Of a stretch of DNA of 55,698 nt, positions 10,485 to 55,698 are shown in pieces. Under the pieces are notes generated by a model. The model made no database searches. It was not told the origin of the DNA and was given only the letters and a program-made list of their open reading frames with translations. The translations under genes and the position numbers were made by a program. Numbering within the stretch: the first letter of the stretch is position 1; each line of letters starts with the position of its first letter. Origin of the DNA: Candidatus Omnitrophota bacterium (GTDB taxonomy: Bacteria; Ratteibacteria; UBA8468; B48-G9; JAFGKM01). The stretch is taken from contig JAMWCJ010000003.1 in NCBI GenBank assembly GCA_023818645.1, positions 1 to 55,698 on the forward strand. Reading direction: 5' to 3'.

Positions 10485-10485
10485 T

Positions 10486-42438: not shown

Positions 42439-43655
42439 TAAATTACCATTTTTAATAAGATATTAAATTTTACTTTATTCTCTTTTGTAAAAGATATATC
42501 GTTAATTATAAAATCTGTAAAAATCTTTGATTTTCTTACTTTCCCCTCAATAATATCAAAATCCTTTAAACTTTCAACTGTACATATTAAATTTAAATTT
42601 TTATTATTTATTAAAACTTCTTCAACCTCTACATTAATATTTTCTGGAAAAAGATTTGTTATTTCTTCAAGAATTTTTATAATAGGAATTTTGTAAATAG
42701 GGGCTGGAGAATAATTTTTATCTTCCAACATCTTTTCTTTAATTTGTATCAGAGGGTTTATGATTTTTTTTGTTTCAGGAAAGATTGACTTATAAAGATT
42801 TTCCATTCTTTTATTAATTTCCTCTACTTTCTTTTCTTTTTCTATTTTTTCAAAATGTGGATTTATGAAAAATAAAGTACATATGACTAAAAGGAAAAAA
42901 TAAAATATATATTCAAGATTTATTTTTTTCCGTGGCAACAAAATTTCCTGAAAGGAGATGCTTTTAATTTTTTTTGTTTCTTCTAATATGTTGAAAAAAG
43001 TTGCCTCTGATAAAAAATGTATTCCCTCTATTTTTATCTCTTGATAAATTTTTCTATCTCCAATAAAGTAAACAGGGTGTTTTTTAGTTGAAAATAAAGA
43101 AGGAAGGATTTCTGAAATATGTTCTTTTATGTTATCTGAAGAATAAGAATAAACACCAGAAATTACAGAATTTTCAATAAGATTTATTAAAAAATAATCA
43201 TTTTCAGCAAAAAGTTCAATAAAATTGTTTTCTTTAATTTTATTTTTAAAAAATTGGTCAAGCAAGAGAGAATCAATTAAAAATATATATTTTGCCTTAT
43301 TTATTTTAAAAATTTCTTTCAGATAGTTTATTTTATCTTTTTCAATAGCAAAAATTCCAACGATGGTCTTATTCTTCTCAGGATATTGAAAATTTAAATA
43401 AAAATAAAAATTATCAATAGGTAATGGTAACTTACCCTCAATTTCTTGACTTAAGATTAAACTTATTTTCTTTTTGTCAACAAAATCAAATTCTACTTTT
43501 CTAAAAAAAACATTTAATTTAGAAAAAATTAAAACAAAATAATTCCCTCTATTTTCTTTTATAAAATTTTCTAAATTTTCAAAAACGATTTCTCTTTTTT
43601 CACTATTTTTGTAACAATAAACCGTTTCACCCTTTATATATAAATAAATTTTCAT
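42438..43655 (-). CDS. GspL-like (PilM/PilN-type architecture) assembly-platform protein
   Basis: 405 aa with a cytoplasmic about 240-aa domain, a single TM (YIFYFFLLVICTLFFINP) and a periplasmic tail. It sits between gspK and the gspM-like gene. Confidence 0.5.
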   Translation of the reverse strand: MKIYLYIKGETVYCYKNSEKREIVFENLENFIKENRGNYFVLIFSKLNVFFRKVEFDFVDKKKISLILSQEIEGKLPLPIDNFYFYLNFQYPEKNKTIVGIFAIEKDKINYLKEIFKINKAKYIFLIDSLLLDQFFKNKIKENNFIELFAENDYFLINLIENSVISGVYSYSSDNIKEHISEILPSLFSTKKHPVYFIGDRKIYQEIKIEGIHFLSEATFFNILEETKKIKSISFQEILLPRKKINLEYIFYFFLLVICTLFFINPHFEKIEKEKKVEEINKRMENLYKSIFPETKKIINPLIQIKEKMLEDKNYSPAPIYKIPIIKILEEITNLFPENINVEVEEVLINNKNLNLICTVESLKDFDIIEGKVRKSKIFTDFIINDISFTKENKVKFNILLKMVI

Positions 43656-44572
43656 ATAACATCCTTTTTAATCAAATTAGTAGTTTTATCTTTTTTTAAT
43701 ATTCCTTCTGTAATCTTTTCGTCCCCTTTTTCGTTTTTTATTTTAATAAAGACATGAAAATAATTGCTTTTATATTTTATCAAACTTTTGTTTTTTAAAA
43801 AAGTATTTCTGTTTATTTCTAAAAGAAATCTTTCATTCAATGGTCTGTTTTCTCTTTCTTCAATAATTCTATTTACCTGCTCAGTTGTAAAACCAATAGA
43901 ATTTAATATTTCACTTTTACAAGTATTTACATTTATTTTATCATCAGAATATATAGTAATAAAATCTAAAAGTCCCTTCTTTTCTTCTTTCCCATAAACA
44001 ATTTCTTTATTAAACCCTTTTATTAATAAGAGTTCTTTTAGAGATAGCAGATTTCTATTTGGCGGTGTATAACTTAATCCTTCAATTGAATAAGCAAGAT
44101 CTTCTGCTCCATTAGGTCTTGGCAAATTGTCTTCATCTATCCAGTCAAGTAAACAGTCCAAGATAAAGGTTGGATATTCAACGATTGAAATTAGGTTCTT
44201 TAAAATCTCCAAAAGTAGTTGATTGGTTTTACCTTTTTCTCCTATAATTTTATTTATGTTTATCTTTGAATTTTCATCTTCAATTTTAATATATAGGTCA
44301 TAGTTTCCAATTTTATAATTTCTTTCTTGCGTCCAATTTTCTTTTATCCAGTCATAGTTATTTTCATCTTTTTCAAGAATTTTTTTTGCAATTTCAAATC
44401 CAATGTCAGAAATCCTATCCATTTCAATAAAATCATAATAATTTTTGAAAGATTCAAGATACTTTTTTGTTTTATAATTAAAAAATAAAACCACAGATGT
44501 AAGTATAAGAGAAAAACCTAAAACAAAAATTAAAATAAAACCTTTATTTTTTTTCCTCATTTTTTTCTTCAA
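43652..44572 (-). CDS. gspK: Type II secretion minor pseudopilin GspK
   Basis: N-terminal hydrophobic helix (KGFILIFVLGFSLILTSVV) and WIDEDNLPRPNGAEDLAYS...YTPPNRNLLSLKELLLIKGF, typical of GspK. Confidence 0.75.
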   Translation of the reverse strand: MKKKMRKKNKGFILIFVLGFSLILTSVVLFFNYKTKKYLESFKNYYDFIEMDRISDIGFEIAKKILEKDENNYDWIKENWTQERNYKIGNYDLYIKIEDENSKININKIIGEKGKTNQLLLEILKNLISIVEYPTFILDCLLDWIDEDNLPRPNGAEDLAYSIEGLSYTPPNRNLLSLKELLLIKGFNKEIVYGKEEKKGLLDFITIYSDDKINVNTCKSEILNSIGFTTEQVNRIIEERENRPLNERFLLEINRNTFLKNKSLIKYKSNYFHVFIKIKNEKGDEKITEGILKKDKTTNLIKKDVI

Positions 44573-45086
44573 TAATGTTCAATAATACTGGATAAAAAAT
44601 TTCTTCTCCAGAATAGTTTAGTTCAATGGCAATTCCTTTGATGGTTTTATCAGTTTCTGCTATATAATTCCATTTTTCCTCTTGAAAAAAAAGAAAATTT
44701 ATACTTTGACATTTTAAAACAGGGAAACTATATGTATATCCTGAAAAAATATTTTTTTGTTTTCTTATCAATGTTTCTTCTTCATTAACTTTTACTGTAT
44801 AAGTTATTTCAACTGGAAATTCTATATCTTGAATAAAAGTAGAGAAAACAATTTCTTTTTTATCAAGTTTTAAATTATGGAAATCAATAATTCCGTTTAT
44901 CTCAGATTTAAATGAGTAAAGAAAATTAAATAAAAGTTCCTTATTTTTAATTTCTTTTTCAAGATCTTTAACATTTTTTTGAACTGTAAAAACTATTCTA
45001 TAAATGATTAAAAAACTTAAAAGAATTAATGAGAGCGAAATTAAAATTTCAATAAGTGTAAATCCAAGTTTTTTTAAATTATTCAT
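44544..45086 (-). CDS. gspJ: Minor pseudopilin, GspJ-like
   Basis: Prepilin motif KLG-FTLIEILISL. Size (180 aa) and order fit GspJ. Confidence 0.6.
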   Translation of the reverse strand: MNNLKKLGFTLIEILISLSLILLSFLIIYRIVFTVQKNVKDLEKEIKNKELLFNFLYSFKSEINGIIDFHNLKLDKKEIVFSTFIQDIEFPVEITYTVKVNEEETLIRKQKNIFSGYTYSFPVLKCQSINFLFFQEEKWNYIAETDKTIKGIAIELNYSGEEIFYPVLLNIIEEKNEEKK

Positions 45087-45462
45087 TTTTTAAAGATGTT
45101 TTTAAAAATGGAATAAAAGTGGAATAATATTCATCTTTCCATTCTATTATTAATTTATAAGGAATCATTTCAATATCTTGTTCTGTATCTTTTATTGTTA
45201 TATCTGAGATTTTAATTTCCCATATATACTCACTATCTGGTTCATCAAAATTTCCTCTCCCCTCTTTTATTTCTTCGCCTTTTAATTTAATTTCTTCAAT
45301 TTTCTTTTCTGCAAGAAGAATTATTTTTACTTTATCATTTATAATTTTTATCTCTTTTAGACACATTAAAAAATTTGTTAAACATACAGTTGCAACAATT
45401 CCAAAAATTCCAATAGCAACCATTATTTCAAGAAAAGTAAATCCATTTTTATATATTTTCAA
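45079..45462 (-). CDS. gspI: Minor pseudopilin, GspI-like
   Basis: Prepilin motif KNG-FTFLEIMVAIGIFGI. Size (127 aa) and order fit GspI. Confidence 0.6.
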   Translation of the reverse strand: MKIYKNGFTFLEIMVAIGIFGIVATVCLTNFLMCLKEIKIINDKVKIILLAEKKIEEIKLKGEEIKEGRGNFDEPDSEYIWEIKISDITIKDTEQDIEMIPYKLIIEWKDEYYSTFIPFLKTSLKNE

Positions 45463-45912
45463 AATTTATTTCTCCTTTTAAAATTTCTATATCTGAAAAA
45501 GGATTGCTGAAAAGAGTATATTTTAAATTCTTTTCAGAGTCGTAAATGTATAATAGCATAAAATCCTTTTTTCCGTTCGGTTTAATTTTAAAAAAAATTG
45601 TTCCGCTATTCTTTTCTTCAATTTCATTTTTACCTTTATAAAAATCAAAGTTTGAAATAATTGGTTCAACTTGATTTTCTTCGTCATTTCCAAACCAAAA
45701 GGAATTTTCGTCAAGATTAAAAAAGAAATATATCGTTTGTTTATTAGAAATTGCAATTTTTTCTGCTTGTTTAATTTTATCCATTAATTTATTTAATTCT
45801 TCATCAGAAATCTCTAAAAAAAAAGATTTGAAAGAGGGTAAAATTAGAGAAAAAAAAACGAAATTATTAATAAAACCACCATCATTTCAAAAAAAGTGAA
45901 TCCCTTACTCAA
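45449..45912 (-). pseudogene. gspH: Minor pseudopilin GspH-like, split by a -1 frame change inside a T9 run (A9 on the + strand, 45850-45858)
   Basis: Minus-strand frame A (45912-45844) reads TTG-start M-SKG-FTFFEMMVVLLIISFFFL-stop, a prepilin leader plus helix. Frame C is open 45886-45449 and continues FFSLILPSFKSFFLEISDEELNKL-MDKIKQ.... One extra T, or a -1 slip in the run, fuses them into an about 154-aa pseudopilin. Confidence 0.75.
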
Positions 45913-46345
45913 TCTTTGAACTTGATATATCTGCATCTGCCCCTTCTCCTCCTTCTTTTCCATCCCTTCCATATGAAATAATTTCATAATCTTCTCCATT
46001 TCTTCCAGGACTTAAGTATACATAATCATTGTTCCACGGATCTTTTGGAATAGAAGGTTTATCAAGATATCCTCCTTCTCTCCACTTTTGAGGGATTCTA
46101 CCTGATGTGGGTTTTTCTATCAATGCTTTTAGTCCTTGTTCTGTAGAAGGATAGAAACCATTATCAAGATAAAATAATTTAAGTCCACTTTCTAAACTTT
46201 TTATCTGTACTTTTGCAGCAGTAATTTTTGCATCTTCAACTCTTTTTAAAAAAGAAGGGAAAACTAACATTGTAAGCAAACCAAGGATTATAATAACTAC
46301 CATAAGTTCAATAAATGTGAAGCCCTTTTTCATGCTTATCTTCAA
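45905..46345 (-). CDS. gspG: Type II secretion major pseudopilin GspG
   Basis: MKKG-FTFIELMVVIIILGLL, then GFYPSTEQGLKAL and DPWNNDYVYLSPGRNGEDYEIISYGRDGKEGG, the classic GspG core. Confidence 0.9.
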   Translation of the reverse strand: MKISMKKGFTFIELMVVIIILGLLTMLVFPSFLKRVEDAKITAAKVQIKSLESGLKLFYLDNGFYPSTEQGLKALIEKPTSGRIPQKWREGGYLDKPSIPKDPWNNDYVYLSPGRNGEDYEIISYGRDGKEGGEGADADISSSKIE

Positions 46346-46350
46346 CTCCT

Positions 46351-47547
46351 TTATTTTATTGACTGCGATATCTGAAAAATTGGCAATAAAACAGATATAA
46401 CAATAAAACCTATTATACCACCCATAAAAAGTATCATAAATGGTTCTAAAAATGTAACAAATCTCATAGATTTTTGAGAAAGTTCTTCTTGATAAATATC
46501 ACCAACTTTATCAAGCATCTCAGATAAATTTCCACTTCTTTCACCAGCACTTACAAGTTGAGTGAATAAATATGGGAAATATTTACATTTGCTAAAACCA
46601 GAAGAAATAGATCCTCCCTTTGAAACATATTCTGTTAATTTTTCTATTTCCTTTTTAATATTAATGCTATTTAAAACTTCTTTCCCTATATTCAGAGAAT
46701 CAATAATATCAACTCCTCCATTTATTAAAGTAGAAAGTGTTTTAGAAAAATTAATAATTTCTCTTTTTAAAAATATATCGTTTAAAAAAGGTACTTTCCA
46801 TAAAATGTTTTCAAAAATCATTTTTCCCTTTTTTGTCTTTAAAAAGTTTTTGACTAATAATAAAAGCAAAATAACAAAAAGAAAAGAATATATCCAGAAA
46901 AATCTAAGAAAATTAGCAATTTTAATTAATATTTTCGTTAATATAGGTAAATTTAATGAAATTTCAGAAAAAATTCTTGTTATTGTTGGAACAATAAATG
47001 ACAGAATAAAAATCAACACAAAAAAAGCAACAATACACATAAAAACAGGATATGTCATAATGACTTTTATTTTATTTTTAAAGGCATTCCTTTTTTCAAG
47101 GAAATCTGCTATTCTTGATAAAACAAGGTCAAGATTTCCTGTTTCTTCGCCAACTTTTACCATAGATATAAACATATTTGAAAATAAATCAGAATATTTT
47201 TTTAAAGCATTTGAAAAAGATACTCCTTCCCTTATACTTTTTTGTATATCCATAAAAATGTTTTTTAATTTCCCTTCTTTCATTTGTATAATTAGTCCAG
47301 AAAGTGCTTCATCAAGAGGAATTTTAGAACTTAAAAAGGTTGAAAGTTCTTTTATTGCTACAATTAAATCCTCTTCTCTTATTCTATTAAAAACAAGAAA
47401 GTTTAATTTTTTCCACTCTTTGATACTTAATATGTAATATCCTTCTTTTTGAATTTCATCCTTTAATTTGTTTAAATTTTCACTATCTTTTTTACCTTTT
47501 TTTATTTTCCCCTTTTTATCTAAAATTGTATATATAAAGGTGGGCAT
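46351..47547 (-). CDS. gspF: Type II secretion inner-membrane platform protein GspF
   Basis: 398 aa with a duplicated T2SSF domain (MVKVGEETGNLD / LVSAGERSGNLSEML) and 3 TM segments. Confidence 0.9.
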   Translation of the reverse strand: MPTFIYTILDKKGKIKKGKKDSENLNKLKDEIQKEGYYILSIKEWKKLNFLVFNRIREEDLIVAIKELSTFLSSKIPLDEALSGLIIQMKEGKLKNIFMDIQKSIREGVSFSNALKKYSDLFSNMFISMVKVGEETGNLDLVLSRIADFLEKRNAFKNKIKVIMTYPVFMCIVAFFVLIFILSFIVPTITRIFSEISLNLPILTKILIKIANFLRFFWIYSFLFVILLLLLVKNFLKTKKGKMIFENILWKVPFLNDIFLKREIINFSKTLSTLINGGVDIIDSLNIGKEVLNSINIKKEIEKLTEYVSKGGSISSGFSKCKYFPYLFTQLVSAGERSGNLSEMLDKVGDIYQEELSQKSMRFVTFLEPFMILFMGGIIGFIVISVLLPIFQISQSIK

Positions 47548-47549
47548 TT

Positions 47550-49067
47550 TTAAACATCCTGTGTCACTCTTAATACCTCTGATATTGTTGTAAGTCCTTT
47601 TTTTACTTTGTCTATTCCATCCATTCTTAATGTTTTCATTCCTCTTTTTATACCTTCTTTTTTAATCTCGCTTGAAGATGCTCTTTTTAAAATAAGTTCT
47701 TTTATTCCTTCATCAATAACAAGTAATTCAAAAATACCTGTTCTACCATAATATCCCTCATTTAAACAATATTTACAACCTTTTCCCACCATAAATTTAC
47801 TATTTATTAAATCTTTTTCATCAACTTCGGGAATTAATTCAGAAGGTGGTTTTTCTATAACAGAACATTTTGGACAATTTAATCTTACCAACCTTTGAGC
47901 CATAACACCTATTAAAGAAGAGGCGAGTAAATATGGTTCTATTCCCATATCTGTCAATCTCACTATTGCACTTGAAGCATCATTTGTATGTAAAGTGCTG
48001 AAAACAAGATGTCCTGTTAAAGATGCTTGTATTGCCATTTCCGCTGTTTCCCTATCTCTTATTTCTCCAACCATTATAACATTAGGGTCGTGTCTTAATA
48101 TAGACCTTAAACCATTTGCAAAAGTTAATCCTACTTTAGGATTTACTTGTATTTGATTTATCCCTTCAAGATTATATTCAACTGGATCTTCAAGAGTTAT
48201 TATATTTATTCCAGGATTATTGATTTTAGATAAAGCAGCATAGAGTGTTGTTGTTTTTCCACTTCCTGTTGGGCCTGTTAATAAAATAATTCCATGGTCG
48301 TAATGGATTAGTTGGTTAAATTTAATATAATTATCTTCAGAAAAACCAAGTTGTTCAAGACTTAACAAAAAAGTTGCTCTATCAAGCAATCTCAATACAA
48401 CTGATTCACCAAAAAAAGTAGGTATTATAGAAATTCTTATATCAATTTTTTTACTATCAACTTTTATTGATGTTCTTCCATCCTGTGGAATCCTTTTTTC
48501 TGCAATATCAAGATTAGACATTATTTTAATTCTTGTTATGATTGGTGGATGATATTTTTTGGGGAGAACAAAAATGTCGTGAAGAATTCCGTCTATTCTA
48601 TATCTAACTTTTAAAGAAGTTTCCATAACTTGAAGGTGAATATCACTTGCTCTCATTGAGATTGCTCTATAAATTATTTGATTTACTATTCTGATAACAG
48701 GTGCTTTATTGGCAAGGTCAAGAAGGTTAGATGTTTCAGTATCAATATTTTCGTCTAAATGTAATGATTCTTCTGTACGCAGATCATCAATCACTTTTTT
48801 TGAAGAACTTGGATGATAATAAAATTTTTCAATAGTTTCATTTATTTTCTCTTCGCTTGAAATGGCTATTTTTATGTCCTTTTTAAGAATTGTTTTTATC
48901 TCTCCTATATCAAGATTTAAAGGATTATTTGTGATAATAAGGATTTCTCCATTTTCACCATTAACAGGAATAAAACAATTATTTTTTAAAAAATTATAAG
49001 GGAAAATATTCAAAATTTCAGGGTCTATCCTGTCTTCAAAATTTTCTATCCATCTCAATTTATCCAT
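47550..49067 (-). CDS. gspE: Type II secretion ATPase GspE
   Basis: N-terminal GspE_N-like domain, Walker A GPTGSGKTT, Asp box, Walker B VIMVGEIRD, His box, and a tetracysteine CPKC...CKYC. Confidence 0.95.
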   Translation of the reverse strand: MDKLRWIENFEDRIDPEILNIFPYNFLKNNCFIPVNGENGEILIITNNPLNLDIGEIKTILKKDIKIAISSEEKINETIEKFYYHPSSSKKVIDDLRTEESLHLDENIDTETSNLLDLANKAPVIRIVNQIIYRAISMRASDIHLQVMETSLKVRYRIDGILHDIFVLPKKYHPPIITRIKIMSNLDIAEKRIPQDGRTSIKVDSKKIDIRISIIPTFFGESVVLRLLDRATFLLSLEQLGFSEDNYIKFNQLIHYDHGIILLTGPTGSGKTTTLYAALSKINNPGINIITLEDPVEYNLEGINQIQVNPKVGLTFANGLRSILRHDPNVIMVGEIRDRETAEMAIQASLTGHLVFSTLHTNDASSAIVRLTDMGIEPYLLASSLIGVMAQRLVRLNCPKCSVIEKPPSELIPEVDEKDLINSKFMVGKGCKYCLNEGYYGRTGIFELLVIDEGIKELILKRASSSEIKKEGIKRGMKTLRMDGIDKVKKGLTTISEVLRVTQDV

Positions 49068-50652
49068 CTTTATTTATCCCTTCTATTAATTTTTCTTTCT
49101 CTTGTTTTATTTTTTCTGCCTGTTCAAATGTTGAAATTATATGAGGTGTAATAAATATCATTAAGTTTGTTTTTATTGATTTAGTTGTCTCTTTTCTGAA
49201 TAACCTGCCGAGAAGTGGGATGTCTCCAAAGAATGGAACTTTTTGAAGCGATTTTTCTGAATCGTTTCTTAATAATCCACCGAGAACAACAGTTTTTCCA
49301 TTTGGAATTATTAAAGTTGTTTCTGCCTGTCTTTTTGCTGTTGTTGGTGCTTCAGGTATTCCTCCTTCAACAAGTTTTGTAACCTCTTGAGAAATTTTTA
49401 ATCTTACATATTTATCCTGACTTATCTGCGGAGTTATTTTTAATATAATCCCAACATCTTTATAATCATAACTTTTAACAACATCGCTACCCTGTCCACT
49501 TGAATAAGTGTAAAACCTTGTTTCTTTTAAATAAGGTATATTTTCACTTATATTTATTTTTGCTTCCTGATTATCTGCGGTTACAATTTGTGGTGTTGAA
49601 AGTATATTGAACTGACTATCTTTTGCATACATATTTATTAAAGCGCCTACACTTAAAGGGAAAGTAAAATCACCTTTATAAAAAGCAAGAGAAAGTCCTG
49701 ATGGTGGAACTCCTGATGCAATATAAGAAGCAATATCTCCAAAGTTAGTTCCTGTAACACCTGTATAATTTTCATTATTAAATTTCCAAGATGTTGCCCA
49801 TTCTATTCCAAGTTGTTTTGTTTTATCAATAGTTACTTCTGCAATTAATGCTTCAATTAAAACTTGGTTTGTTAAAACATCCAGTTCTTTTATAATTTTT
49901 TCAATTGTATCAAAATCATTAGGGTCTGCATAAACAATTAGTGAATTTGTTGCTTTTACACTAACAACCTGTGGTTGTATAGGTGCTGTTCTTGCTATAG
50001 GTCTAACAGCAGAAATCTTTTTTTGTAAAATTTGACCTAAAACTTTAGCAATTTCTTCAGCATCAGCATTTTGTAATTTAAATATTCTTATTTCCTCTTG
50101 TCCTGGTGGACTTGGTTTATCTATTTTTTCAATAATACTAATTATTTTTTTAATATTTTCACCGACATCTGCAATAATTAAGGTATTTGTTCTTGCATCA
50201 ATTGTAATCTGTCCTCCTTTAGAAATATATGGTGTTATTATTTGAGAGATTGTATCTGAGGGATAATATTTTAGAGGAATTACTTGGATTATAAAATTCT
50301 CTTCTTTATTTTCTGGTATGTCAGAAATATTTATATCTTTTGCTCTTATTTTACCTTCAGAAATAGGAATAATCAGTGATAGATTTTCTTTTTTTATAAC
50401 TGTAAAACCATAAAAGTTTAATACAGATTTAAAAACTCTGTCAATATTTTCAACAGGTACAGGAGTTGTTGAATAAATAGTTATAGTTCCTCTTACATTT
50501 GGGTCTAATACATAGTTTTCTTTCGTTAATTCACCTATAAATTTAATAAATGTCTTTATATCAACATTATTGAAGTTCAAATAAAAATTGCTTTCGGATA
50601 AAATAACTATTGAAGAAAAAAAATAAATAATAAAATAAAGAACCTTTTTCAT
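49060..50652 (-). CDS. gspD: Secretin, GspD type (compact, 530 aa)
   Basis: Signal peptide, an N0-like domain (FNNVDIKTFIKFIGELTKENYVLDPNVRGTITIY), N1/N2-like repeats, a secretin core (QVLIEALIAEVT...) and the C-terminal VPFFGDIPLLGRLFRK....NLMIFITPHII. Confidence 0.9.
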   Translation of the reverse strand: MKKVLYFIIYFFSSIVILSESNFYLNFNNVDIKTFIKFIGELTKENYVLDPNVRGTITIYSTTPVPVENIDRVFKSVLNFYGFTVIKKENLSLIIPISEGKIRAKDINISDIPENKEENFIIQVIPLKYYPSDTISQIITPYISKGGQITIDARTNTLIIADVGENIKKIISIIEKIDKPSPPGQEEIRIFKLQNADAEEIAKVLGQILQKKISAVRPIARTAPIQPQVVSVKATNSLIVYADPNDFDTIEKIIKELDVLTNQVLIEALIAEVTIDKTKQLGIEWATSWKFNNENYTGVTGTNFGDIASYIASGVPPSGLSLAFYKGDFTFPLSVGALINMYAKDSQFNILSTPQIVTADNQEAKINISENIPYLKETRFYTYSSGQGSDVVKSYDYKDVGIILKITPQISQDKYVRLKISQEVTKLVEGGIPEAPTTAKRQAETTLIIPNGKTVVLGGLLRNDSEKSLQKVPFFGDIPLLGRLFRKETTKSIKTNLMIFITPHIISTFEQAEKIKQEKEKLIEGINKDG

Positions 50653-50681
50653 TTTTATAATTCTGGTGTCAATCTTAAATT

Positions 50682-51749
50682 TTACCTAATAACTCCACCT
50701 TGAGTTCCTATTGTTCTTGCTCTTTCGCGTGTATAGGTATCTATTGCATTTTCTATTGCTTGTTTTACCTCATCGTCTGTTTCTTTTTTTAATCTTTCAA
50801 GTAAAATATTCAAAATCTGGGGATTGTATTCCATTGCAGAAATAATCTTAACTGCATTTTTTCTAATCTCTGGATTATCATCATTAAGATATTTAATTAT
50901 TGAAGGGTCAACGCCAAATATTCCAGTTATACTTGTTCCCCTTGTTCCACCTTGTCCTTCTCTACTTAGACCAACACTTTGTAGATATAACTCAATTGAA
51001 TCAGTCAATACTTTTCTCACTCCTTCATCTTTTTCATATTTTAATCTTACAAGTAATGTTCTTAAAGCAATAAGTTCCTGTAAACTCCCTGCTTCATATT
51101 CATCTCTTTGTGAACCAGTTCTATTTCTTGTATCGGTTCCTGCAAAACTTCTTGTTGAAAAGATTTTTGTAGCATACTGTCTAACTACAGGGTCAGGATC
51201 ATCCATAAATCTTAAAATAGTTACATCTGTTTCAAATAGAATATCAAGTCCCATAGATGCCATATCTTGAACTTCAGGGTCAGGGTCATTTAAAAGCACA
51301 AAAAGGTCTGGGATAAAAATTGCTCCTCCAACTCCTTCTCCACCTCTATCTCTACTATCTCTACCAATATCCATACCAAATAACCCTCTTACTCCACTCC
51401 TATTATCTGAAGTTCCTCTTGTTCCCTCTCCGCTTACCATTGCTCCTGTTAATGATTGAATTGCTTGAATTCTTACTTTTGGGTCAGGGTGTCTTAAATA
51501 ACTTCCAATTATTGCTGCTAAGAAATTTGCAAGTTGTGAACTTCTATAATCTTCTTCTCTACCAGATTGACCCCTAATTCCTCTTCCCAATCCTCCCTGT
51601 CCAAATGTACCTGTTCTTGAACCAATACTTCCCTGCCTTGATATATTAGAAATTCTTGTTGCTTGTTGTGTTGAAGTTGTTTGAGAAAAAAGCACTGTAG
51701 TAGCCAATAACACTATTATAAACACCATACTTTTTATTATTTTCTTCAT
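50682..51749 (-). CDS. Secreted/periplasmic HEAT-repeat protein with Gly/Arg/Ser/Thr-rich linkers
   Basis: Signal peptide MKKIIKSMVFIIVLLATTVLFS-QTT. Five HEAT-like units (HPDPKVRIQAIQSL, NDPDPEVQDMASMGL, DDPDPVVRQYATKIF, NDDNPEIRKNAVKII, ETDDEVKQAIENAI) are separated by GTRGTS/GRG-type low-complexity segments. Confidence 0.7.
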   Translation of the reverse strand: MKKIIKSMVFIIVLLATTVLFSQTTSTQQATRISNISRQGSIGSRTGTFGQGGLGRGIRGQSGREEDYRSSQLANFLAAIIGSYLRHPDPKVRIQAIQSLTGAMVSGEGTRGTSDNRSGVRGLFGMDIGRDSRDRGGEGVGGAIFIPDLFVLLNDPDPEVQDMASMGLDILFETDVTILRFMDDPDPVVRQYATKIFSTRSFAGTDTRNRTGSQRDEYEAGSLQELIALRTLLVRLKYEKDEGVRKVLTDSIELYLQSVGLSREGQGGTRGTSITGIFGVDPSIIKYLNDDNPEIRKNAVKIISAMEYNPQILNILLERLKKETDDEVKQAIENAIDTYTRERARTIGTQGGVIR

Positions 51750-51808
51750 TTTCCCCTCCCTTTTTGTTTATATATTACCTTAACTTTTTATAAATGTCAA
51801 TATTTTCT

Positions 51809-53671
51809 TTAAAACTTTTCAAGTAATCCACCTTCTATCTTTTCTTCTGACTTTTTAACATCTGGTTTTGTAATTTCAACTGATTCTTCATAAGATGAGA
51901 TAATATGAGGAGTTATAAAAATTAATAGTTCACTTTTATTTCTATCAAAACTTGGTTTTTTAAATAAATATCCAAGGATAGGAATTCTTCTTAAAAAAGG
52001 AATGCCAGATTCTTTTGCTTCTTCTCTACTTCTTATCATTCCACCTATAACAAGTGTTTCTTTGTCATATAGAACAACGCTTTGAGTTGTCATTCTTTCA
52101 GATAAAATTGGGATTTCAATTGAATATCTTTGGTCAGCAGTCATTGCTTCAAGTTTTCTCCTTTCAATTAGATTTGAATCATATATGTTTAGATTAAGCA
52201 TAATTGTTCTGTTTCTTTGTATCAAAGGTGTAACTTCAAATTCAGTTCCAATTATTTCTTCTTGTAGATTTATTGCACTTGCAGTAGTTACTGTTGGTGC
52301 TCCTGTTGCTGGTGTTGTTATTGTTTGTTGTGTTTCAGGTATTATATAAGGTTCATTTTGTGTTACTGCTATATATGCAGTTGTTCCGTTTATACAGGTA
52401 ATTTTTGGTGCTTGAATTATTTTTGCCTTACCCCTTGTTGCAAGTGCCTGAATTAATGTATTGAAATCTCTATTGGTTACTCCAAAAGAAAATCCAGTTG
52501 GTAATGTTTGTGTTAATCCAGGAGTATATGTGATATTATCTCCAAATCTTGGGCCAGTTAAAGTTCCGTCAATAGCGTTAATCATTCTTGAACTTATCAT
52601 CCAGTCAATAGAAAATTGATTACCTTCAGAAGTTGCTACTTCTACAATTTTACATTCAAGAAGAACTTGAGAAACAGGTGTATCAAGTGTAGAAATAACA
52701 CCTTCTATATTTCTTAAAATATTTTCACTTTGTGCTTCAGCTATTATTGAATTTGTTGTTGGTTCAGGATAAGCAGTTATTCCTTTAAAAACTTCTCTTA
52801 ACGCTTTTACAATTGTACTGGCATCTGTGTAATAAAGTTTAAATACTCTTCTTGCTTTCTGGATCTCTTTAATTTTTTCCTGATATTCTTCTTTTGTCAT
52901 TATCTTTATTATTCCATTTTCTTCTATATATTTAAGTCCATTCTGTTCACATATAGTATCAAGAACTATTCTAATTGGTATATCTTTGAAACTGAGTGTA
53001 ACCTTTCCAGAAACATTAGGACTTAAAATATAACTTACTCCAGTAATTTGATACAATTCATCCAATGCTTCTTTGAGGTTCATATCTTTTAATTCAATCG
53101 TTACTTTTTTATTCCCTATTTCACCTAATTTTGGTCTTTCTTCTTCAATTTTTCTCAAAACTATTTCTTCCATCTGTCTTCTTGCTTTACTTGCAAGTCG
53201 TATTGTTTCAGTAAACATATTACTTTCATATGATTTTTGAGCAAGATTGAAAGTAGATGTTGGTTCCAATTTTTCTATATCTGAAAGGTTATATTTTTCA
53301 TTAACTTCATTAAAATATTTACTTGTTTCTAATAATGCCTGTTGTGCCTGAAATGCCAATTTTTCGAACTCCTCTTCCCTATTAACTATAATCTCACCTT
53401 TTAAATCTTCACCTATCTTAAATTCCTCTTTTGTATTAAGTTTTCCAAGTCGTGCCTGTGAATTTTTAAGATATCTATCAACATCTGATTTTCTGTAATT
53501 TGGGTTTATTGATTTTATTTTAGTGAAAGTTGCAATTGCATTAGGATAGTCCTTTTTGAGATAATAAGAAACTCCAAGATTATATAAATCCCTCAAATTT
53601 TCTTGAGTATATAAGTTAAAATTCAAAAAAATTAAAATCAATAGTAAAATTAACCCACTTTTTCTTATCAT
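51809..53671 (-). CDS. Second secretin, PilQ-like, with an N-terminal TPR-like/helical extension
   Basis: Signal peptide, a TPR-like unit (LYNLGVSYYLKKDYPNAIATFTKIKSINPNY), an N0/STN-like domain (LKDMNLKEALDELYQITGVSYILSPNVSGKVTLSFKDIP), a secretin core (QVLLECKIVEVAT...) and GIPFLRRIPILGYLFKK....ELLIFITPHII. Confidence 0.85.
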   Translation of the reverse strand: MIRKSGLILLLILIFLNFNLYTQENLRDLYNLGVSYYLKKDYPNAIATFTKIKSINPNYRKSDVDRYLKNSQARLGKLNTKEEFKIGEDLKGEIIVNREEEFEKLAFQAQQALLETSKYFNEVNEKYNLSDIEKLEPTSTFNLAQKSYESNMFTETIRLASKARRQMEEIVLRKIEEERPKLGEIGNKKVTIELKDMNLKEALDELYQITGVSYILSPNVSGKVTLSFKDIPIRIVLDTICEQNGLKYIEENGIIKIMTKEEYQEKIKEIQKARRVFKLYYTDASTIVKALREVFKGITAYPEPTTNSIIAEAQSENILRNIEGVISTLDTPVSQVLLECKIVEVATSEGNQFSIDWMISSRMINAIDGTLTGPRFGDNITYTPGLTQTLPTGFSFGVTNRDFNTLIQALATRGKAKIIQAPKITCINGTTAYIAVTQNEPYIIPETQQTITTPATGAPTVTTASAINLQEEIIGTEFEVTPLIQRNRTIMLNLNIYDSNLIERRKLEAMTADQRYSIEIPILSERMTTQSVVLYDKETLVIGGMIRSREEAKESGIPFLRRIPILGYLFKKPSFDRNKSELLIFITPHIISSYEESVEITKPDVKKSEEKIEGGLLEKF

Positions 53672-53719
53672 ATACTTCCTCCTTTTATAATTTTATTTCT
53701 TTTAATTAGTTTTGTCAAG

Positions 53720-55698
53720 TTATTTTACATCTATTGAATATATCAACCCTTCCTTTGATAAAATTAATTTTTTATCCTCTCTTTTCATTAATCTGTACCC
53801 TTCTACTTCATCTCCTATTGTTACTTTATATGTTTTTTTCTCTCCTTCAATAAAGAAATATTCAACACCTTCTAATATCATTCTGCCTCTATAAATAAGT
53901 TTACATTCTTTTTGAGGAAGAATAAATGGAGTGGTTTTTACTTCTGGGACTTTTTCAATTTCTGACAGTTTTGTAGATATAGAAACTTGTTCTGGTTTAG
54001 TAATAATTGGCTTTTCAACAGGAGATACTTTTGGTACTTCTGGCTTTTCAACAGGAGAGATTTTTGGTACTTCTGGTTTTTCAGGTTCAGTTATTTTTTC
54101 TTCTGCCTTTAAAATACTTACAAATTTTTGTGTTTTCATAATTGAGATAACATCGGGTTTTTTAGCATATATTATATTTGTAGGAGTAGGTTTTTTCATA
54201 ACTTCCATCGTTAACCTTCCAGTAGAAAATGGGTCTCTTTTTCCCTCTATGTCAATTTTTTCTTTTGTATAGTAAACAAGTTTTTCTTCTTCTATAACCT
54301 CTTTTTTCTTTTCCGGTGCAGGTCTTACTTCTGCCATTTCACCTACTATAAGTTTTAATCTTTCTTCAGGAGAAACTAATTTTTTGAGATATAATAATAG
54401 TTCTACAATCCACGCAAATATAAGAACTATAAAAACAAATTTAAATATATTTCTTCTTAAAAAGGACCTGAGATTGAAAGGTTCTTTATAAACAGCAACC
54501 TTAACTTTTTCTTTTGGAATAATTTTTGCTTTTTCAGGAACAATTTTTACACGTTTTTTCTTTAGAATTTCTTTTTTCTTAAGATTTATAAGATTTGTAA
54601 TGTTCTTTTTTGTATCATTTAATTGAAATTCTGGAATTTTATCTGTTTCAACAACTATTTTAGATATGTTGTCTATATATGTTTTAATTTTTTGTTGTTC
54701 TTCTTTTCTTCTTATTATTTCTTCTTTTTCAGGTCTTGTTATTTTTATCTCTTTTACAGGTATCTTTTCTTTCTTTTTTAGAAGGATTTCTTTTCTTTCT
54801 TTTTCAAGTTTTTTTGCTATTTCAATAAGTTCTAGTTTTCTTTGTCTTTCAATTGTTTTTTTGTAAAGAATAAGATTGGTGTAAAGGAGGTTTTTTTCCT
54901 TTTCTATTTGATTTAGAAGTGCTTTATATCTTATAAAATTGAATAAATTCTGTTTGTTTTTTATTCGTAAGTTCTTTTGCTCTAATTTCTTTTGAAGTTT
55001 CCTTTTCTCTCTTTCTTTCTGCCTTTCTTTCTCTAACTCTAACTTCTTCTTTAACTCCTCTTGCTTTTTCTCCTCTAACTGCTTCCTTAACTCTTCCTTT
55101 TCCTTCCTCTGTCTTTCTCTTTCCTCCTGTATTTTCTTTATTTGCTCCTGTCTTTCTCTCTCTTTCTCCTCCTTCTCTTTTTCTTTTAATTCTAATACCT
55201 TTTGTTTCTCCTTGCTTCTCCTTTCCTTTAATTCCTGTTTTTCTAATAGTAACTTTTCCCTTAATCTCTTATTCTCTTCTACTTTCTTCTTTAATAACTC
55301 TAATATCTCCTCTCTTTTCTTTAATTTTTCTTGCTTTTCTTTTCTAACTTGCTCTAATCTTTTCTCTTTTTCCTGTTCTCTTTCCTTTAATAGTTCCTGT
55401 TTCCTTTTCTCTCTTTCTTTCTGCCTTTCTTTCTCTAACTCTAACTTCTTCTTTAACTCCTCTTGCTTTTTCTCCTCTAACTGCTTCCTTAACTCTTCCT
55501 TTTCCTTCCTCTGTCTTTCTCTTTCCTCCTGTATTTTCTTTATTTGCTCCTGTCTTTCTCTCTCTTTCTCTTCCTTCTGCTTTTCTTTTAATTCTAAATA
55601 TTTTTTTCTTTTTTCTTTTCTTCTTTTACTATTTAATATAAATGCTTTGTCTGCTTCTTCTGGTTTTTTTTCTTTGTTTATTTCCTTATCAGTCCAAT
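53720..55698 (-). CDS. PilP/GspC-like secretin-docking protein fused to a very long Glu/Lys/Arg coiled-coil N-terminal region (5' end outside the window)
   Basis: I checked every in-frame triplet from 54338 to 55696 on the minus strand and found no stop and no ATG/GTG/TTG. The 205-aa track ORF (53720..54337) is therefore only the tail of an ORF of at least 658 aa. Layout: over 430 aa of polyampholyte coiled coil, one TM (IFKFVFIVLIFAWIVELLLYL, about 54386-54448), an RDPF motif, Pro-rich PEVPK(I/V)SPVEK repeats, and a C-terminal beta domain LIYRGRMILEGVEYFFIEGEKKTYKVTIGDEVEGYRL that fits the PilP/GspC HR pattern. Confidence 0.7.
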   Translation of the reverse strand, partial: WTDKEINKEKKPEEADKAFILNSKRRKEKRKKYLELKEKQKEEKERERQEQIKKIQEERERQRKEKEELRKQLEEKKQEELKKKLELEKERQKEREKRKQELLKEREQEKEKRLEQVRKEKQEKLKKREEILELLKKKVEENKRLREKLLLEKQELKERRSKEKQKVLELKEKEKEEKERERQEQIKKIQEERERQRKEKEELRKQLEEKKQEELKKKLELEKERQKEREKRKLQKKLEQKNLRIKNKQNLFNFIRYKALLNQIEKEKNLLYTNLILYKKTIERQRKLELIEIAKKLEKERKEILLKKKEKIPVKEIKITRPEKEEIIRRKEEQQKIKTYIDNISKIVVETDKIPEFQLNDTKKNITNLINLKKKEILKKKRVKIVPEKAKIIPKEKVKVAVYKEPFNLRSFLRRNIFKFVFIVLIFAWIVELLLYLKKLVSPEERLKLIVGEMAEVRPAPEKKKEVIEEEKLVYYTKEKIDIEGKRDPFSTGRLTMEVMKKPTPTNIIYAKKPDVISIMKTQKFVSILKAEEKITEPEKPEVPKISPVEKPEVPKVSPVEKPIITKPEQVSISTKLSEIEKVPEVKTTPFILPQKECKLIYRGRMILEGVEYFFIEGEKKTYKVTIGDEVEGYRLMKREDKKLILSKEGLIYSIDVK
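54011..54076. repeat. 33-bp tandem repeat (2 copies plus a partial third) encoding the Pro-rich spacer
   Basis: Copy 1 is cttttcaacaggagatacttttggtacttctgg (54011-54043) and copy 2 is cttttcaacaggagagatttttggtacttctgg (54044-54076). They encode PEVPKVSPVEK and PEVPKISPVEK. Confidence 0.8.
54997..55597. repeat. In-frame intragenic direct duplication, two copies 402 bp apart
   Basis: 54997-55168 is identical to 55399-55570 (172 bp). Similarity extends to about 199 bp (to 55195/55597) with 3 mismatches. The 402-bp offset equals 134 codons. Confidence 0.85.

What the first reader, a model, noticed from the sequence alone, without database searches (positions are those of the whole stretch)
50682..51749. 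A signal-peptide-bearing HEAT-repeat protein with GTRGTS/GRG linkers sits between the two secretin genes and is a compositional outlier
HEAT/PBS-lyase-like repeats (five units of the (D/N)PDP.V(R/Q)..A...L type) are typically cytoplasmic scaffolds. This one has a clear Sec signal peptide and sits between the two secretins. The repeats alternate with Gly/Arg/Ser/Thr-rich segments that recur (EGTRGTSDNRSGVRGLFGMD vs GGTRGTSITGIFGVD). This implies an internal two-fold architecture. By eye the gene is visibly GC-richer, and the protein is Arg-rich and Lys-poor compared with the Lys/Ile/Asn-rich neighbours. Candidate roles are a periplasmic adaptor bridging the two secretins, a pilotin-like factor, or the system's cargo.
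Basis: partly seen in the sequence, partly recalled or inferred. Interest (0 to 1): 0.65.

Follow-up and report, generated by a model that had tools for sequence, protein, structure and literature searches.

The report
Exported HEAT protein between two secretins
An uncultured hot-spring bacterium (Ratteibacteria group) encodes an exported helical-repeat protein that always sits right after one outer-membrane secretin gene and usually just before a second, so it is probably an undescribed accessory part of that secretion/pilus machine, though its exact job is not yet known.

Summary
Window 50682-51749 (-) encodes a 355-aa protein with a Sec-type signal peptide and six HEAT units, not five. The units are separated by four disordered Gly/Arg/Ser/Thr linkers. 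It lies between a TPR+STN secretin (51809-53671) and a bona fide GspD (49060-50652).

It is the strongest compositional outlier among 54 ORFs: GC 0.348 vs 0.272, R/(R+K) 0.70 vs ≤0.41. GC3 (0.149) and Arg codon choice are native, so this reflects amino-acid content, not foreign DNA.

The family is small and discrete, with 25 representatives among 1.84 billion proteins, and is found only in Ratteibacteria-like MAGs. The STN-secretin is immediately upstream in 26/26 loci. GspD follows in 24/27; in three species GspE follows directly.

A sister lineage has a 111-122-aa "mini-HEAT" (signal peptide, linker, two HEAT units) in the same slot. It is homologous to the N-terminal third of this protein, and its stop codon overlaps the start of gspC. 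The six-HEAT loci contain no gspC.

My best reading is a soluble periplasmic accessory or adaptor of this hybrid T4P/T2SS-like apparatus, tied mainly to the STN-secretin. A pilotin is unlikely because there is no lipobox. Cargo or chaperone roles are not excluded. The proposed L1/L3 two-fold repeat is not supported. This is a new variant of a known kind, of moderate interest.

The parts
50682..51749 (-). Gene for the 355-aa exported six-HEAT protein (stop codon 50682-50684)
   Evidence: ORF. Pfam HEAT/HEAT_2. 78 homologues. AF2 model.
51753..51760 (-). Shine-Dalgarno GGGAGGGG upstream of the ATG at 51749
   Evidence: Read directly from the sequence.
51684..51749 (-). Signal peptide, residues 1-22 (MKKIIKSMVFIIVLLATTVLFS | Q)
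   Evidence: n-h-c layout. The (A/S/G)|Q site is conserved: +1 is Q in 54/59 homologues.
51561..51683 (-). Linker L0, residues 23-63: disordered, Gly/Arg/Ser/Thr/Gln-rich, no Lys
   Evidence: pLDDT below 50 for residues 22-61. Composition.
51426..51560 (-). HEAT unit H1, residues 64-108 (loop HPDPKVR)
   Evidence: Helices 64-85 and 90-108. hhalign H1~H5 97.1%. Aligns to mini-HEAT unit 1.
51324..51425 (-). Linker L1, residues 109-142 (GTRGTS...GVRGLFGMD...); length conserved, sequence not, apart from a G-x-(L/I)-F motif
   Evidence: pLDDT below 50. Alignment A1. Linker statistics.
51141..51323 (-). HEAT units H2 and H3, residues 143-203 (loops DPDPEVQ, DPDPVVR)
   Evidence: H2 aligns to mini-HEAT unit 2.
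51105..51140 (-). Linker L2, residues 204-215
   Evidence: pLDDT below 50 for residues 207-214.
50961..51104 (-). HEAT unit H4, residues 216-263, carrying the family signature ALRTLLVRLKYEKD
   Evidence: Invariant R230, L236, K237, E239. H4~H6 97.4%.
50913..50960 (-). Linker L3, residues 264-279 (second GTRGTS)
   Evidence: pLDDT below 50 for residues 263-279..
50706..50912 (-). HEAT units H5 and H6, residues 280-348 (IFGVD cap, DDNPEIR, ETDDEVK)
50685..50705 (-). C-terminal tail TQGGVIR; a terminal ...G-x-x-R is common in the family
51809..53671 (-). TPR + STN/N0 + Secretin_N + Secretin outer-membrane secretin (620 aa), the invariant upstream neighbour
49060..50652 (-). GspD secretin (530 aa), the downstream neighbour
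   Evidence: TIGR02517 453.7 bits against cutoff 351..
53720..55696 (-). Long bitopic protein (at least 658 aa, runs off the window end): charged repeated N-terminus, one TM helix, Pro-rich linker, conserved C-terminal beta-rich domain. It is not a 205-aa ORF.
   Evidence: Open frame. No Pfam match. Conserved in relatives. PilP-likeness is not demonstrated.
41926..49067 (-). Rest of the T2SS set: GspE, GspF, GspG, three or four minor pseudopilins, GspK, GspL-like, GspM-like
   Evidence: Synteny in relatives.

Best explanation
The gene encodes a Sec-exported, SPase-I-processed, soluble periplasmic alpha-solenoid. It has six HEAT units strung on flexible, Lys-free Gly/Ser/Thr/Arg linkers. I read it as a lineage-specific accessory subunit of a hybrid type IV pilus / type II secretion-like apparatus.

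Its constant partner is the TPR+STN secretin encoded immediately upstream. It most likely docks on periplasmic parts of that secretin through its HEAT surfaces and, via the linkers, reaches neighbouring components such as GspD or the inner-membrane platform. That would make it an adaptor or scaffold.

Shown: export signal features, HEAT fold with disordered linkers, native origin, a discrete family, invariant linkage to the STN-secretin, and homology of its N-terminal third to a stand-alone two-HEAT protein. In a sister lineage that mini-HEAT occupies the same slot and its stop codon overlaps the gspC start.

Inferred: periplasmic residence rather than secretion, physical binding to the secretin(s), and the scaffold or adaptor role.
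For: - HEAT fold and disordered linkers.
- Signal peptide conserved, with (A/S/G)|Q in 54-55 of 59 homologues, a 16-residue h-region and no lipobox.
- Native gene: GC3 0.149 and AGA Arg codons match the neighbours.
- Discrete family: 25 representatives at E ≤ 1e-30, then a sharp drop to generic HEAT proteins. It occurs in 26 GTDB species, all Ratteibacteria-like MAGs.
- Synteny: STN-secretin upstream in 26/26 loci, GspD next in 24/27.
- Same-strand array with 59-nt and 29-nt gaps, no terminator, and a strong SD.
- Sister lineage: STN-secretin, then mini-HEAT (111-122 aa, four helices), then gspC whose start overlaps the mini-HEAT stop, then gspD, in 4/4 loci.
- Profile-profile alignment of mini-HEAT to residues 73-175 of this protein: 95.9%, E 6e-9.
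- Evolutionary distances of the HEAT protein co-vary with each secretin after controlling for the other (partial r 0.49 and 0.53, Mantel p about 5e-4). The two secretins barely co-vary with each other once GspE is controlled for (0.14). This is suggestive only.
- Precedents for accessory secretin scaffolds exist, for example GspB/OutB (PMC9239104).
Against: - There is no direct evidence of binding. No multimer prediction could be run.
- Foldseek and PDB searches give only generic ARM/HEAT matches, none to a T2SS or T4P component.
- The protein evolves faster than the secretins: mean Kimura distance 0.90 vs 0.58 and 0.47.
- Linker charge ranges from +8 to -14 across the family, so no single electrostatic mechanism fits.
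- All six-HEAT loci also share the housekeeping flanks PheST-ZapA and PolA, so part of the synteny may be phylogenetic inertia.
- No expression data: only hot-spring DNA runs hold the sequence.
- Mirror-tree correlations are confounded by shared phylogeny and saturation.
Confidence: 0.45

Rival explanations
1. Secretin assembly or stability chaperone. This would be a soluble, non-lipidated functional analogue of the alpha-helical-repeat pilotins PilF/PilW/Tgl. The HEAT groove would bind an unfolded or C-terminal segment of the secretin monomers in the periplasm and protect them until they insert into the outer membrane.
For: - The gene is adjacent to secretin genes in every locus.
- It has an alpha-solenoid, peptide-binding-type fold.
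- Both secretins carry short 24-29-aa tails after the Pfam Secretin domain, which ends at 506/530 and 591/620.
- The strong SD suggests an abundant product.
- Known T4P pilotins are helical-repeat (TPR) proteins (general knowledge).
Against: - There is no lipobox Cys, although Lgt and LspA are encoded in the same window.
- There is no homology to PulS, AspS or TPR pilotins.
- The STN-secretin already carries its own N-terminal TPR.
- In the sister lineage the mini-HEAT stop overlaps the gspC start, pointing to the inner-membrane/periplasmic platform rather than to outer-membrane targeting.
Confidence: 0.2
2. Secreted or surface-displayed cargo of the system. The HEAT protein would be exported to the periplasm by Sec and then pushed out through one of the secretins, acting outside the cell, for example in adhesion to other cells.
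For: - It has a cleavable signal peptide and no membrane anchor.
- Long low-complexity Ser/Thr/Gly linkers are typical of surface proteins.
- It is the fastest-evolving gene of the locus.
- HEAT repeats are reported exclusively in extracellular regions of Omnitrophota giant proteins encoded next to T2SS-like loci (bioRxiv 10.1101/2023.11.21.568195).
Against: - It is embedded between structural genes rather than at the operon edge.
- It is single-copy, with a conserved size and a conserved core (18 invariant columns).
- The 111-122-aa mini-HEAT has a stop overlapping the gspC start, which is unusual for a substrate.
- It has no enzymatic or adhesin domain.
Confidence: 0.15
3. A periplasmic protein with a role unrelated to the secretins, kept next to them only by synteny inherited within one narrow lineage.
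For: Even the housekeeping flanks (PheS/PheT/ZapA upstream, PolA downstream) are conserved in the six-HEAT loci, so gene order in this lineage is generally static.
Against: - The association survives other rearrangements of the locus: presence or loss of gspC, and loss of gspD in three species.
- It holds across lineages whose STN-secretin N-terminal regions (the 400-aa query) share only 35% identity.
- The mini-HEAT stop overlaps the gspC start.
Confidence: 0.1
4. The N-terminal hydrophobic segment is an uncleaved signal anchor. The protein would then be an inner-membrane-tethered, GspC-like bitopic protein rather than a soluble one.
For: - It occupies the gspC position directly upstream of gspD.
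- GspC also has an N-terminal TM segment followed by a low-complexity linker (general knowledge; PMC3169554).
Against: - The h-region is only about 16 residues.
- A small residue at -1 followed by Q at +1 is conserved in 54-55 of 59 members.
- There is no cytoplasmic N-terminal extension.
Confidence: 0.07

Closest known systems
Unnamed 'mini-HEAT' proteins (111-122 aa) of a sister lineage labelled Candidatus Omnitrophica (e.g. P0276, P0291; GCA_030637775.1)
   Same: - Same slot directly after the STN-type secretin.
- Signal peptide followed by a short Arg/Ser-rich disordered linker.
- Two HEAT units that align collinearly with H1 and H2 of the window protein (hhalign 95.9%).
- Some members already carry Pfam HEAT hits.
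   Different: - Only two HEAT units and no L1 insertion.
- Followed by a gspC (T2SSC+PDZ) gene whose start overlaps the mini-HEAT stop. That gene is missing from the six-HEAT loci.
GspC (T2SSC; e.g. EpsC, OutC, PulC)
   Same: - Gene position immediately upstream of gspD.
- N-terminal hydrophobic segment followed by a low-complexity linker.
- Periplasmic protein-interaction module at the C-terminus.
- GspC links the secretin N0 domain to the platform, and its PDZ domain affects substrate choice (PMC3169554, PMC12369372).
   Different: - No HR domain and no PDZ or coiled coil.
- The N-terminus looks cleaved rather than a TM anchor.
- It is not homologous.
TPR-type secretin pilotins PilF / PilW / Tgl
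   Same: Alpha-helical repeat proteins of the cell envelope that act on a PilQ-type secretin and are often encoded near pilus genes (general knowledge).
   Different: They are outer-membrane lipoproteins built of TPR repeats. This protein has HEAT repeats and no lipobox.
GspB/OutB and TsaP-type secretin-associated scaffolds
   Same: Lineage-restricted accessory proteins that attach to the periplasmic side of a secretin and anchor it to other envelope layers (PMC9239104).
   Different: They use HR-like, LysM or peptidoglycan-binding domains. None is detected here.
Extracellular HEAT repeats of Omnitrophota giant proteins ('Archaeovorins')
   Same: Extracytoplasmic HEAT repeats encoded next to T2SS-like loci in a related PVC-group phylum (bioRxiv 10.1101/2023.11.21.568195).
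   Different: Those are domains inside proteins of more than 10,000 aa that lie downstream of the secretion locus. That paper reports no predicted proteins of 5,000 aa or more in its 34 Ratteibacteria genomes. Generic giant HEAT proteins score below 100 bits against this family's profile.
Akkermansia Amuc_1098-Amuc_1101 pilus-like cluster
   Same: In relatives, the module upstream of the HEAT gene is PilM/FtsA-like, then Amuc_1100-like, then a long protein, then a secretin. This has the same order and Pfam families (PMC5332112).
   Different: No HEAT protein or adjoining gspD-M set is described for Akkermansia in that paper. This was not examined here.

Membership tests
HEAT-repeat alpha-solenoid (Pfam PF02985 / PF13646) | Sequence match above the curated gathering score | tested here: met
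   HEAT 62.6 bits (cutoff 23.5); HEAT_2 59.8 bits (cutoff 27.7); HEAT_EZ 30 bits (cutoff 27).
HEAT-repeat alpha-solenoid (Pfam PF02985 / PF13646) | Tandem helix-turn-helix hairpins stacked into a solenoid | tested here: met
   The AF2 model has 12 repeat helices at pLDDT mostly above 90. Foldseek top hits are designed armadillo, alphaRep and karyopherin structures at probability 1.0, with low TM-scores (0.2-0.3) because of the linkers.
Sec / signal peptidase I substrate | Positively charged n-region, 7-16-residue h-region, small residues at -1/-3, no lipobox | tested here: met
   MKKIIK / SMVFIIVLLATTVLF / S|Q. The same layout appears in 58/59 homologues: -1 is A/S/G in 55 and +1 is Q in 54. 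SignalP itself was not available.
Secretin pilotins (PulS/GspS, AspS, PilF/PilW/Tgl) | Outer-membrane lipoprotein: lipobox with an invariant Cys at +1 | tested here: not met
   The window protein has no Cys. 39/59 family members have none, and no lipobox precedes the cleavage site.
Secretin pilotins (PulS/GspS, AspS, PilF/PilW/Tgl) | Homology to a known pilotin family or TPR architecture | tested here: not met
   No such Pfam, NCBIfam or PDB hit.
Secretin pilotins (PulS/GspS, AspS, PilF/PilW/Tgl) | Binds the secretin and is required for its outer-membrane localisation or multimerisation | not testable with these tools
   Needs pull-downs or heterologous co-expression.
GspC (T2SSC) | HR (homology region) domain that binds GspD N0 | tested here: not met
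   No PF11356 hit. The sister-lineage GspC gives no tblastn hit in the window or in any six-HEAT locus.
GspC (T2SSC) | C-terminal PDZ or coiled-coil domain | tested here: not met
   No PDZ hit in this protein or in the other ORFs of at least 100 aa scanned in the window.
GspC (T2SSC) | Gene immediately upstream of gspD | tested here: met
   29-nt gap to gspD. A canonical example is L038, with gspC then gspD.
Type II secretion substrate | Sec/Tat export followed by T2SS-dependent release from the cell | not testable with these tools
   Only the Sec signal can be assessed. There is no universal T2SS secretion motif.
Six-HEAT / mini-HEAT secretin-linked family (defined here) | Signal peptide with A|Q site, low-complexity linker, HPDP-type first HEAT unit, gene directly downstream of a TPR/STN secretin | tested here: met

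The most novel reading that the evidence does not exclude
The expanded six-HEAT protein is a non-homologous replacement for GspC, a component treated as core in classical T2SS. An ancestral two-HEAT periplasmic partner of GspC would have grown by adding H3 to H6, which form a duplicated pair of HEAT units. It would then have taken over the periplasmic coupling or substrate-recruitment job when gspC was lost. In doing so it would tie a PilQ-like TPR/STN secretin module and a GspD module into one trans-envelope machine with two secretins.
Probability: 0.15. Interest if true: 0.75.

Novelty: new variant of a known kind. Interest (0 to 1): 0.48.

Why it matters
T2SS and T4P machines are described as having a fixed core plus a few lineage-specific accessories, and none of the known accessories is a HEAT protein. 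This is a discrete family of exported HEAT proteins. It is locked to a TPR/STN secretin in a locus that carries two secretins and both PilM/O-type and GspL/M-type platform genes, and in the six-HEAT lineage that locus has no gspC.

If the protein is a structural adaptor, it shows that an alpha-solenoid can serve in the periplasmic coupling layer of these machines. It also gives a natural series for studying how that layer is rewired: mini-HEAT with GspC, then six-HEAT without GspC, then six-HEAT without adjacent GspD. It adds to evidence that extracytoplasmic HEAT repeats are a recurring theme around secretion loci in the Omnitrophota/Ratteibacteria group.

The limits are that the organisms are uncultured and there are no expression or interaction data.

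Tried and rejected
1. Horizontal transfer as the cause of the GC outlier. Rejected: GC3 (0.149) and codon choice are native, and the excess is in GC2 and GC1 from Gly, Arg, Asp and Pro.

2. Two-fold architecture from the linker repeats (EGTRGTS...GLFGMD vs GGTRGTS...GIFGVD). hhalign of linker 1 vs linker 3 gives 1.8% probability. GTRGTS is not conserved at both sites even at 68-81% identity. IFGVD is the cap of HEAT unit 5.

3. Specific structural homologue. The PDB profile search and Foldseek of both models returned only generic ARM, HEAT or designed repeats.

4. A nucleic-acid- or anion-binding role for the RG-rich linkers. Rejected as a family trait, because linker net charge ranges from +8 to -14.

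5. 'PilP-like domain' in the upstream protein. There are no PilP, T2SSC or PDB hits, even with a profile. Only weak CdsD_C matches appear, in 9/14 members with best E 0.0026. Left as undemonstrated.

6. Expression evidence. Only DNA runs from hot-spring metagenomes hold the sequence.

7. Promoter in the 59-nt gap. One 10/12 sigma-70-like match exists, but the region has fewer matches than shuffled controls, so no claim is made.

8. A fused-chain AF2 run to mimic a complex. Not attempted, because the tool returns no PAE or coordinates and an interface could not be judged.

9. Literature. No paper links a HEAT protein to secretins or describes this locus.
Full report
**1. What is in the sequence**

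Window 50682-51749 on the minus strand is an ATG-initiated ORF of 355 aa. A strong Shine-Dalgarno sequence (GGGAGGGG, 51760-51753) precedes it. It lies in a same-strand gene array, 59 nt after the stop of the upstream gene and 29 nt before the start of the downstream gene. No terminator-like site lies between them. One sigma-70-like match sits in the upstream gap, but the region has fewer such matches than shuffled controls, so I make nothing of it.

Pfam assigns HEAT (1.3e-17), HEAT_2 (3.3e-16) and HEAT_EZ, all above their gathering scores. The downstream gene (49060-50652) is a GspD secretin: TIGR02517 scores 453.7 bits against a cutoff of 351. The upstream gene (51809-53671) is a 620-aa secretin with an N-terminal TPR, an STN/N0 domain, Secretin_N and Secretin domains. 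It resembles PilQ most but falls below every NCBIfam cutoff. GspE, GspF, GspG, minor pseudopilins, GspK, a GspL-like and a GspM-like gene follow, then PolA.

**2. Anatomy of the protein**

The N-terminus is MKKIIK / SMVFIIVLLATTVLF / S|QTT. SignalP was not available, so I tested the signal by conservation. In 59 aligned homologues:
- The presequence has a median of 23 residues and a 16-residue uncharged run.
- The -1 residue is A, S or G in 55.
- The +1 residue is Gln in 54.
- There is no lipobox, and 39 proteins have no Cys at all.

This is the signature of a cleaved Sec/SPase I signal rather than a membrane anchor or a lipoprotein.

The AF2 model (59-sequence alignment, mean pLDDT 72) has helices at pLDDT mostly above 90. 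Segments 22-61, 108-121, 126-139, 207-214, 263-279 and 350-355 fall below 50.

There are six HEAT units. The loops are HPDPKVR87, DPDPEVQ155, DPDPVVR184, EKDEGVR239, DDNPEIR290 and ETDDEVK323. Profile comparison groups them into two types: DPDP-type units H1, H2, H3 and H5 (95-97.6% mutual probability), and a second type comprising H4 and H6 (97.4%).

The GTRGTS hexapeptide does occur twice, at residues 109 and 270, but it is not conserved at both sites even in the closest relatives. The two linkers do not align at profile level (1.8%). 'IFGVD' aligns with 'LFETD' (family consensus LFGTD), which is the N-cap of a HEAT helix.

**3. Composition**

The gene has the highest GC of the 54 ORFs of at least 100 aa (0.348 vs 0.272 for the window) and by far the highest GC2 (0.434). 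Its GC3 (0.149) is average. Its Arg codons are AGA in 26 of 32 cases, compared with 84 of 104 in neighbouring genes. R/(R+K) is 0.70, against no more than 0.41 in any other ORF.

The 110 linker residues are 28% Gly, 24% Ser+Thr, 14.5% Arg and 0% Lys. The HEAT core is acidic, with net charge -11.

The outlier status is therefore real, but it reflects the protein's amino-acid make-up rather than foreign origin.

Across the family, linker positions and lengths are conserved, but composition varies between Ser/Thr-rich, Asp/Glu/Asn-rich and Gly/Arg-rich, with net charge from +8 to -14. Lys stays rare (median 1.3%; median R/(R+K) 0.89). Many members end in ...G-x-x-Arg. I have no explanation for the Lys avoidance or the terminal Arg.

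**4. Family and distribution**

- The word-indexed search found 78 proteins of about 300-375 aa. They are un-named or called 'HEAT repeat domain-containing protein', and come from MAGs labelled Ratteibacteria, Omnitrophica or 'bacterium'.
- A full HMMER scan of 1.84 billion cluster representatives found 25 with E ≤ 1e-30. Scores then drop abruptly from 135 to 99 bits into long, generic multi-HEAT proteins.
- A scan of one genome per GTDB species found the family in 26 species, all MAGs of this group.
- The only runs holding near-identical DNA are hot-spring metagenomes.
- PDB sequence and fold searches return only designed alphaRep and armadillo proteins, karyopherins and adaptins.

**5. Gene neighbourhood**

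In relatives with long contigs the locus reads:

PheS - PheT - ZapA | PilM-like (560-590 aa) - Amuc_1100-like (about 250 aa) - long unannotated protein (570-940 aa) - TPR/STN secretin - HEAT - GspD - GspE - GspF - GspG - pseudopilins - GspK - GspL-like - GspM-like | PolA.

The upstream module has the order and Pfam families of the Akkermansia Amuc_1101-1098 pilus-like cluster (PMC5332112).

Counting 30 loci with distinct HEAT DNA:
- The STN-secretin is the immediate upstream gene in 26 of the 26 loci that have enough upstream flank.
- GspD is the next gene in 24 of 27 loci with enough downstream flank.
- In three GTDB species representatives (L010, L017, L023) the HEAT gene is followed directly by GspE.

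So the HEAT gene is tied more tightly to the STN-secretin than to GspD.

In the window, the 'long unannotated protein' is truncated by the window end. The frame is open from 55696 to 53720 (at least 658 aa), so it is not the 205-aa ORF listed mechanically. It has:
- a Lys/Glu/Arg-rich repeated N-terminus containing a 228-nt direct repeat;
- one TM helix;
- a Pro-rich linker;
- a conserved C-terminal domain.

I could not confirm this. There are no PilP, T2SSC or PDB matches even with a profile, only weak CdsD_C hits.

**6. The sister lineage**

I searched with the N-terminal 400 residues of the STN-secretin. The most divergent full-architecture homologue was P0258, at 35% identity. Its locus (L037) reads: long protein - STN-secretin - 122-aa ORF - GspC (T2SSC + PDZ) - GspD - GspE.

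The 122-aa protein has a signal peptide, an Arg/Ser/Gly-rich disordered stretch and four helices that form two HEAT units. It defines a family of 17 proteins of 111-122 aa, some with Pfam HEAT hits. Three further loci show the same order, and the mini-HEAT stop codon overlaps the gspC start.

Profile-profile alignment places the mini-HEAT collinearly on residues 73-175 of the window protein: H1, a skip over linker 1, then H2 (95.9%, E 6e-9).

The window protein is therefore an expanded version of an older, small, exported HEAT protein that already sat behind the STN-secretin. The added C-terminal part (H3-H4 and H5-H6) looks like a duplicated pair.

No T2SSC or PDZ gene is present in the six-HEAT loci or in the other ORFs of at least 100 aa scanned in the 55.7-kb window. 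Whether gspC exists elsewhere in those genomes could not be checked.

**7. Rate covariation**

For 20 species with all four genes, mean Kimura distances are 0.90 (HEAT), 0.58 (STN-secretin), 0.47 (GspD) and 0.32 (GspE).

HEAT distances correlate with those of each secretin after controlling for the other (partial r 0.49 and 0.53, Mantel p about 5e-4). The two secretins correlate only 0.14 with each other once GspE is controlled for.

This fits a protein that contacts both secretins, but mirror-tree signals are weak evidence.

**8. Interpretation**

*Shown:* an exported, native, HEAT-repeat protein with flexible linkers, belonging to a discrete lineage-restricted family, whose gene is locked to a TPR/STN secretin inside a T4P/T2SS-like locus in two divergent lineages.

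*Inferred:* it stays in the periplasm and acts as an accessory adaptor or scaffold of the apparatus, docking on the STN-secretin and possibly reaching GspD or the platform. I put this at 0.45.

*Rivals:*
- A soluble secretin chaperone (0.2). The classical pilotin definition fails for lack of a lipid anchor, although Lgt and LspA are encoded in the window.
- Secreted or surface cargo (0.15). Extracellular HEAT repeats occur next to T2SS-like loci in Omnitrophota (bioRxiv 10.1101/2023.11.21.568195). However, the gene's position inside the operon and the overlap of the mini-HEAT stop with the gspC start argue against this.
- An unrelated periplasmic protein kept by inherited synteny (0.1).
- An uncleaved signal anchor (0.07).

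*Most novel reading not excluded:* the six-HEAT protein took over GspC's coupling or substrate-recruitment role when gspC was lost (0.15). GspC's HR domain binds GspD N0, and its PDZ domain influences substrate choice (PMC3169554, PMC12369372).

**9. Verdict**

Linkage to secretins is robust, 'pilotin' fails a defining test, 'bridge between two secretins' is weakened by the three species lacking an adjacent GspD, and 'cargo' remains open.

I found no literature on this family or locus. It is a new variant of a known kind, namely a lineage-specific accessory of secretin-based machines. Interest is moderate, limited by the lack of any interaction or expression data in uncultured organisms.

Noticed in passing
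window 53720-55696 (-): The gene upstream of the STN-secretin is not the 205-aa ORF that the ORF list gives. The frame stays open to the window end (at least 658 aa). The protein has a Lys/Glu/Arg-rich N-terminus, one TM helix (FKFVFIVLIFAWIVELLLYL), a Pro-rich EKPEVPK linker and a conserved C-terminal domain. Its 'PilP-like' nature could not be confirmed: there are no PilP or T2SSC hits, only weak CdsD_C matches in 9/14 homologues.
   Followed up: partly
window 54997-55224 and 55399-55626: A 228-nt direct repeat (93% identity, 402-nt spacing) lies inside the charged N-terminal region of that upstream gene. It encodes a duplicated block of about 62 aa with EKERERQEQIKKIQEERERQRKEKEEL... sequence.
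   Followed up: partly
L010, L017, L023 (three GTDB species representatives): In these loci the six-HEAT gene is followed directly by gspE. No gspD lies between them, so the locus has only the STN-type secretin. Either GspD was lost or moved, or the T2SS part uses the STN-secretin.
   Followed up: partly
L037 4276-5420; L040 121-1208; L041 2591-3663; L042 1872-2944: The sister lineage has a 111-122-aa exported two-HEAT protein whose stop codon overlaps the start of a gspC (T2SSC+PDZ) gene, between the same two kinds of secretin. In L037 the long upstream protein carries its conserved C-terminal domain twice in tandem.
   Followed up: yes
window 41926-55696 and loci L001-L007: The locus combines two kinds of platform genes, a PilM-like plus Amuc_1100-like module and a GspL-like plus GspM-like pair, and two secretins. 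It has only one ATPase (GspE), one GspF and one major pseudopilin. It is unclear whether this is one hybrid machine or two machines sharing parts.
   Followed up: no
window 51809-53671 (-), residues about 29-59: The STN-type secretin carries a TPR motif fused at its N-terminus (Pfam TPR_1 just below cutoff, TPR_2 weaker). This is reminiscent of the separate TPR pilotins of T4P systems. Its predicted signal peptide also appears to end before a Gln (LYT|QEN), as in the HEAT family.
   Followed up: no
HEAT family alignment A1 (window residues 23-63, 109-142, 204-215, 264-279, 349-355): Linkers are almost free of Lys across the whole family (median 1.3%, median R/(R+K) 0.89), even in AT-rich genomes. 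Many members end in ...G-x-x-Arg. No explanation was found.
   Followed up: partly
window 45449-45784 (-): The 111-aa ORF in the GspH position has no N-terminal methylation motif by Pfam, unlike its neighbours. Relatives call ORFs of 36 to 152 aa in this slot, so the start may be mis-set or the gene degenerate.
   Followed up: no
window 50640-50700 vs 51750-51765: The HEAT gene has a strong Shine-Dalgarno sequence (GGGAGGGG). The gspD start 29 nt downstream of its stop has no recognisable one (…AGAATTATAAAAATG).
   Followed up: no
window 9732-10935 (-): Lgt and signal peptidase II (LspA) genes are adjacent in the window, so the organism can make lipoproteins. The absence of a lipobox in the HEAT protein is therefore meaningful.
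   Followed up: yes
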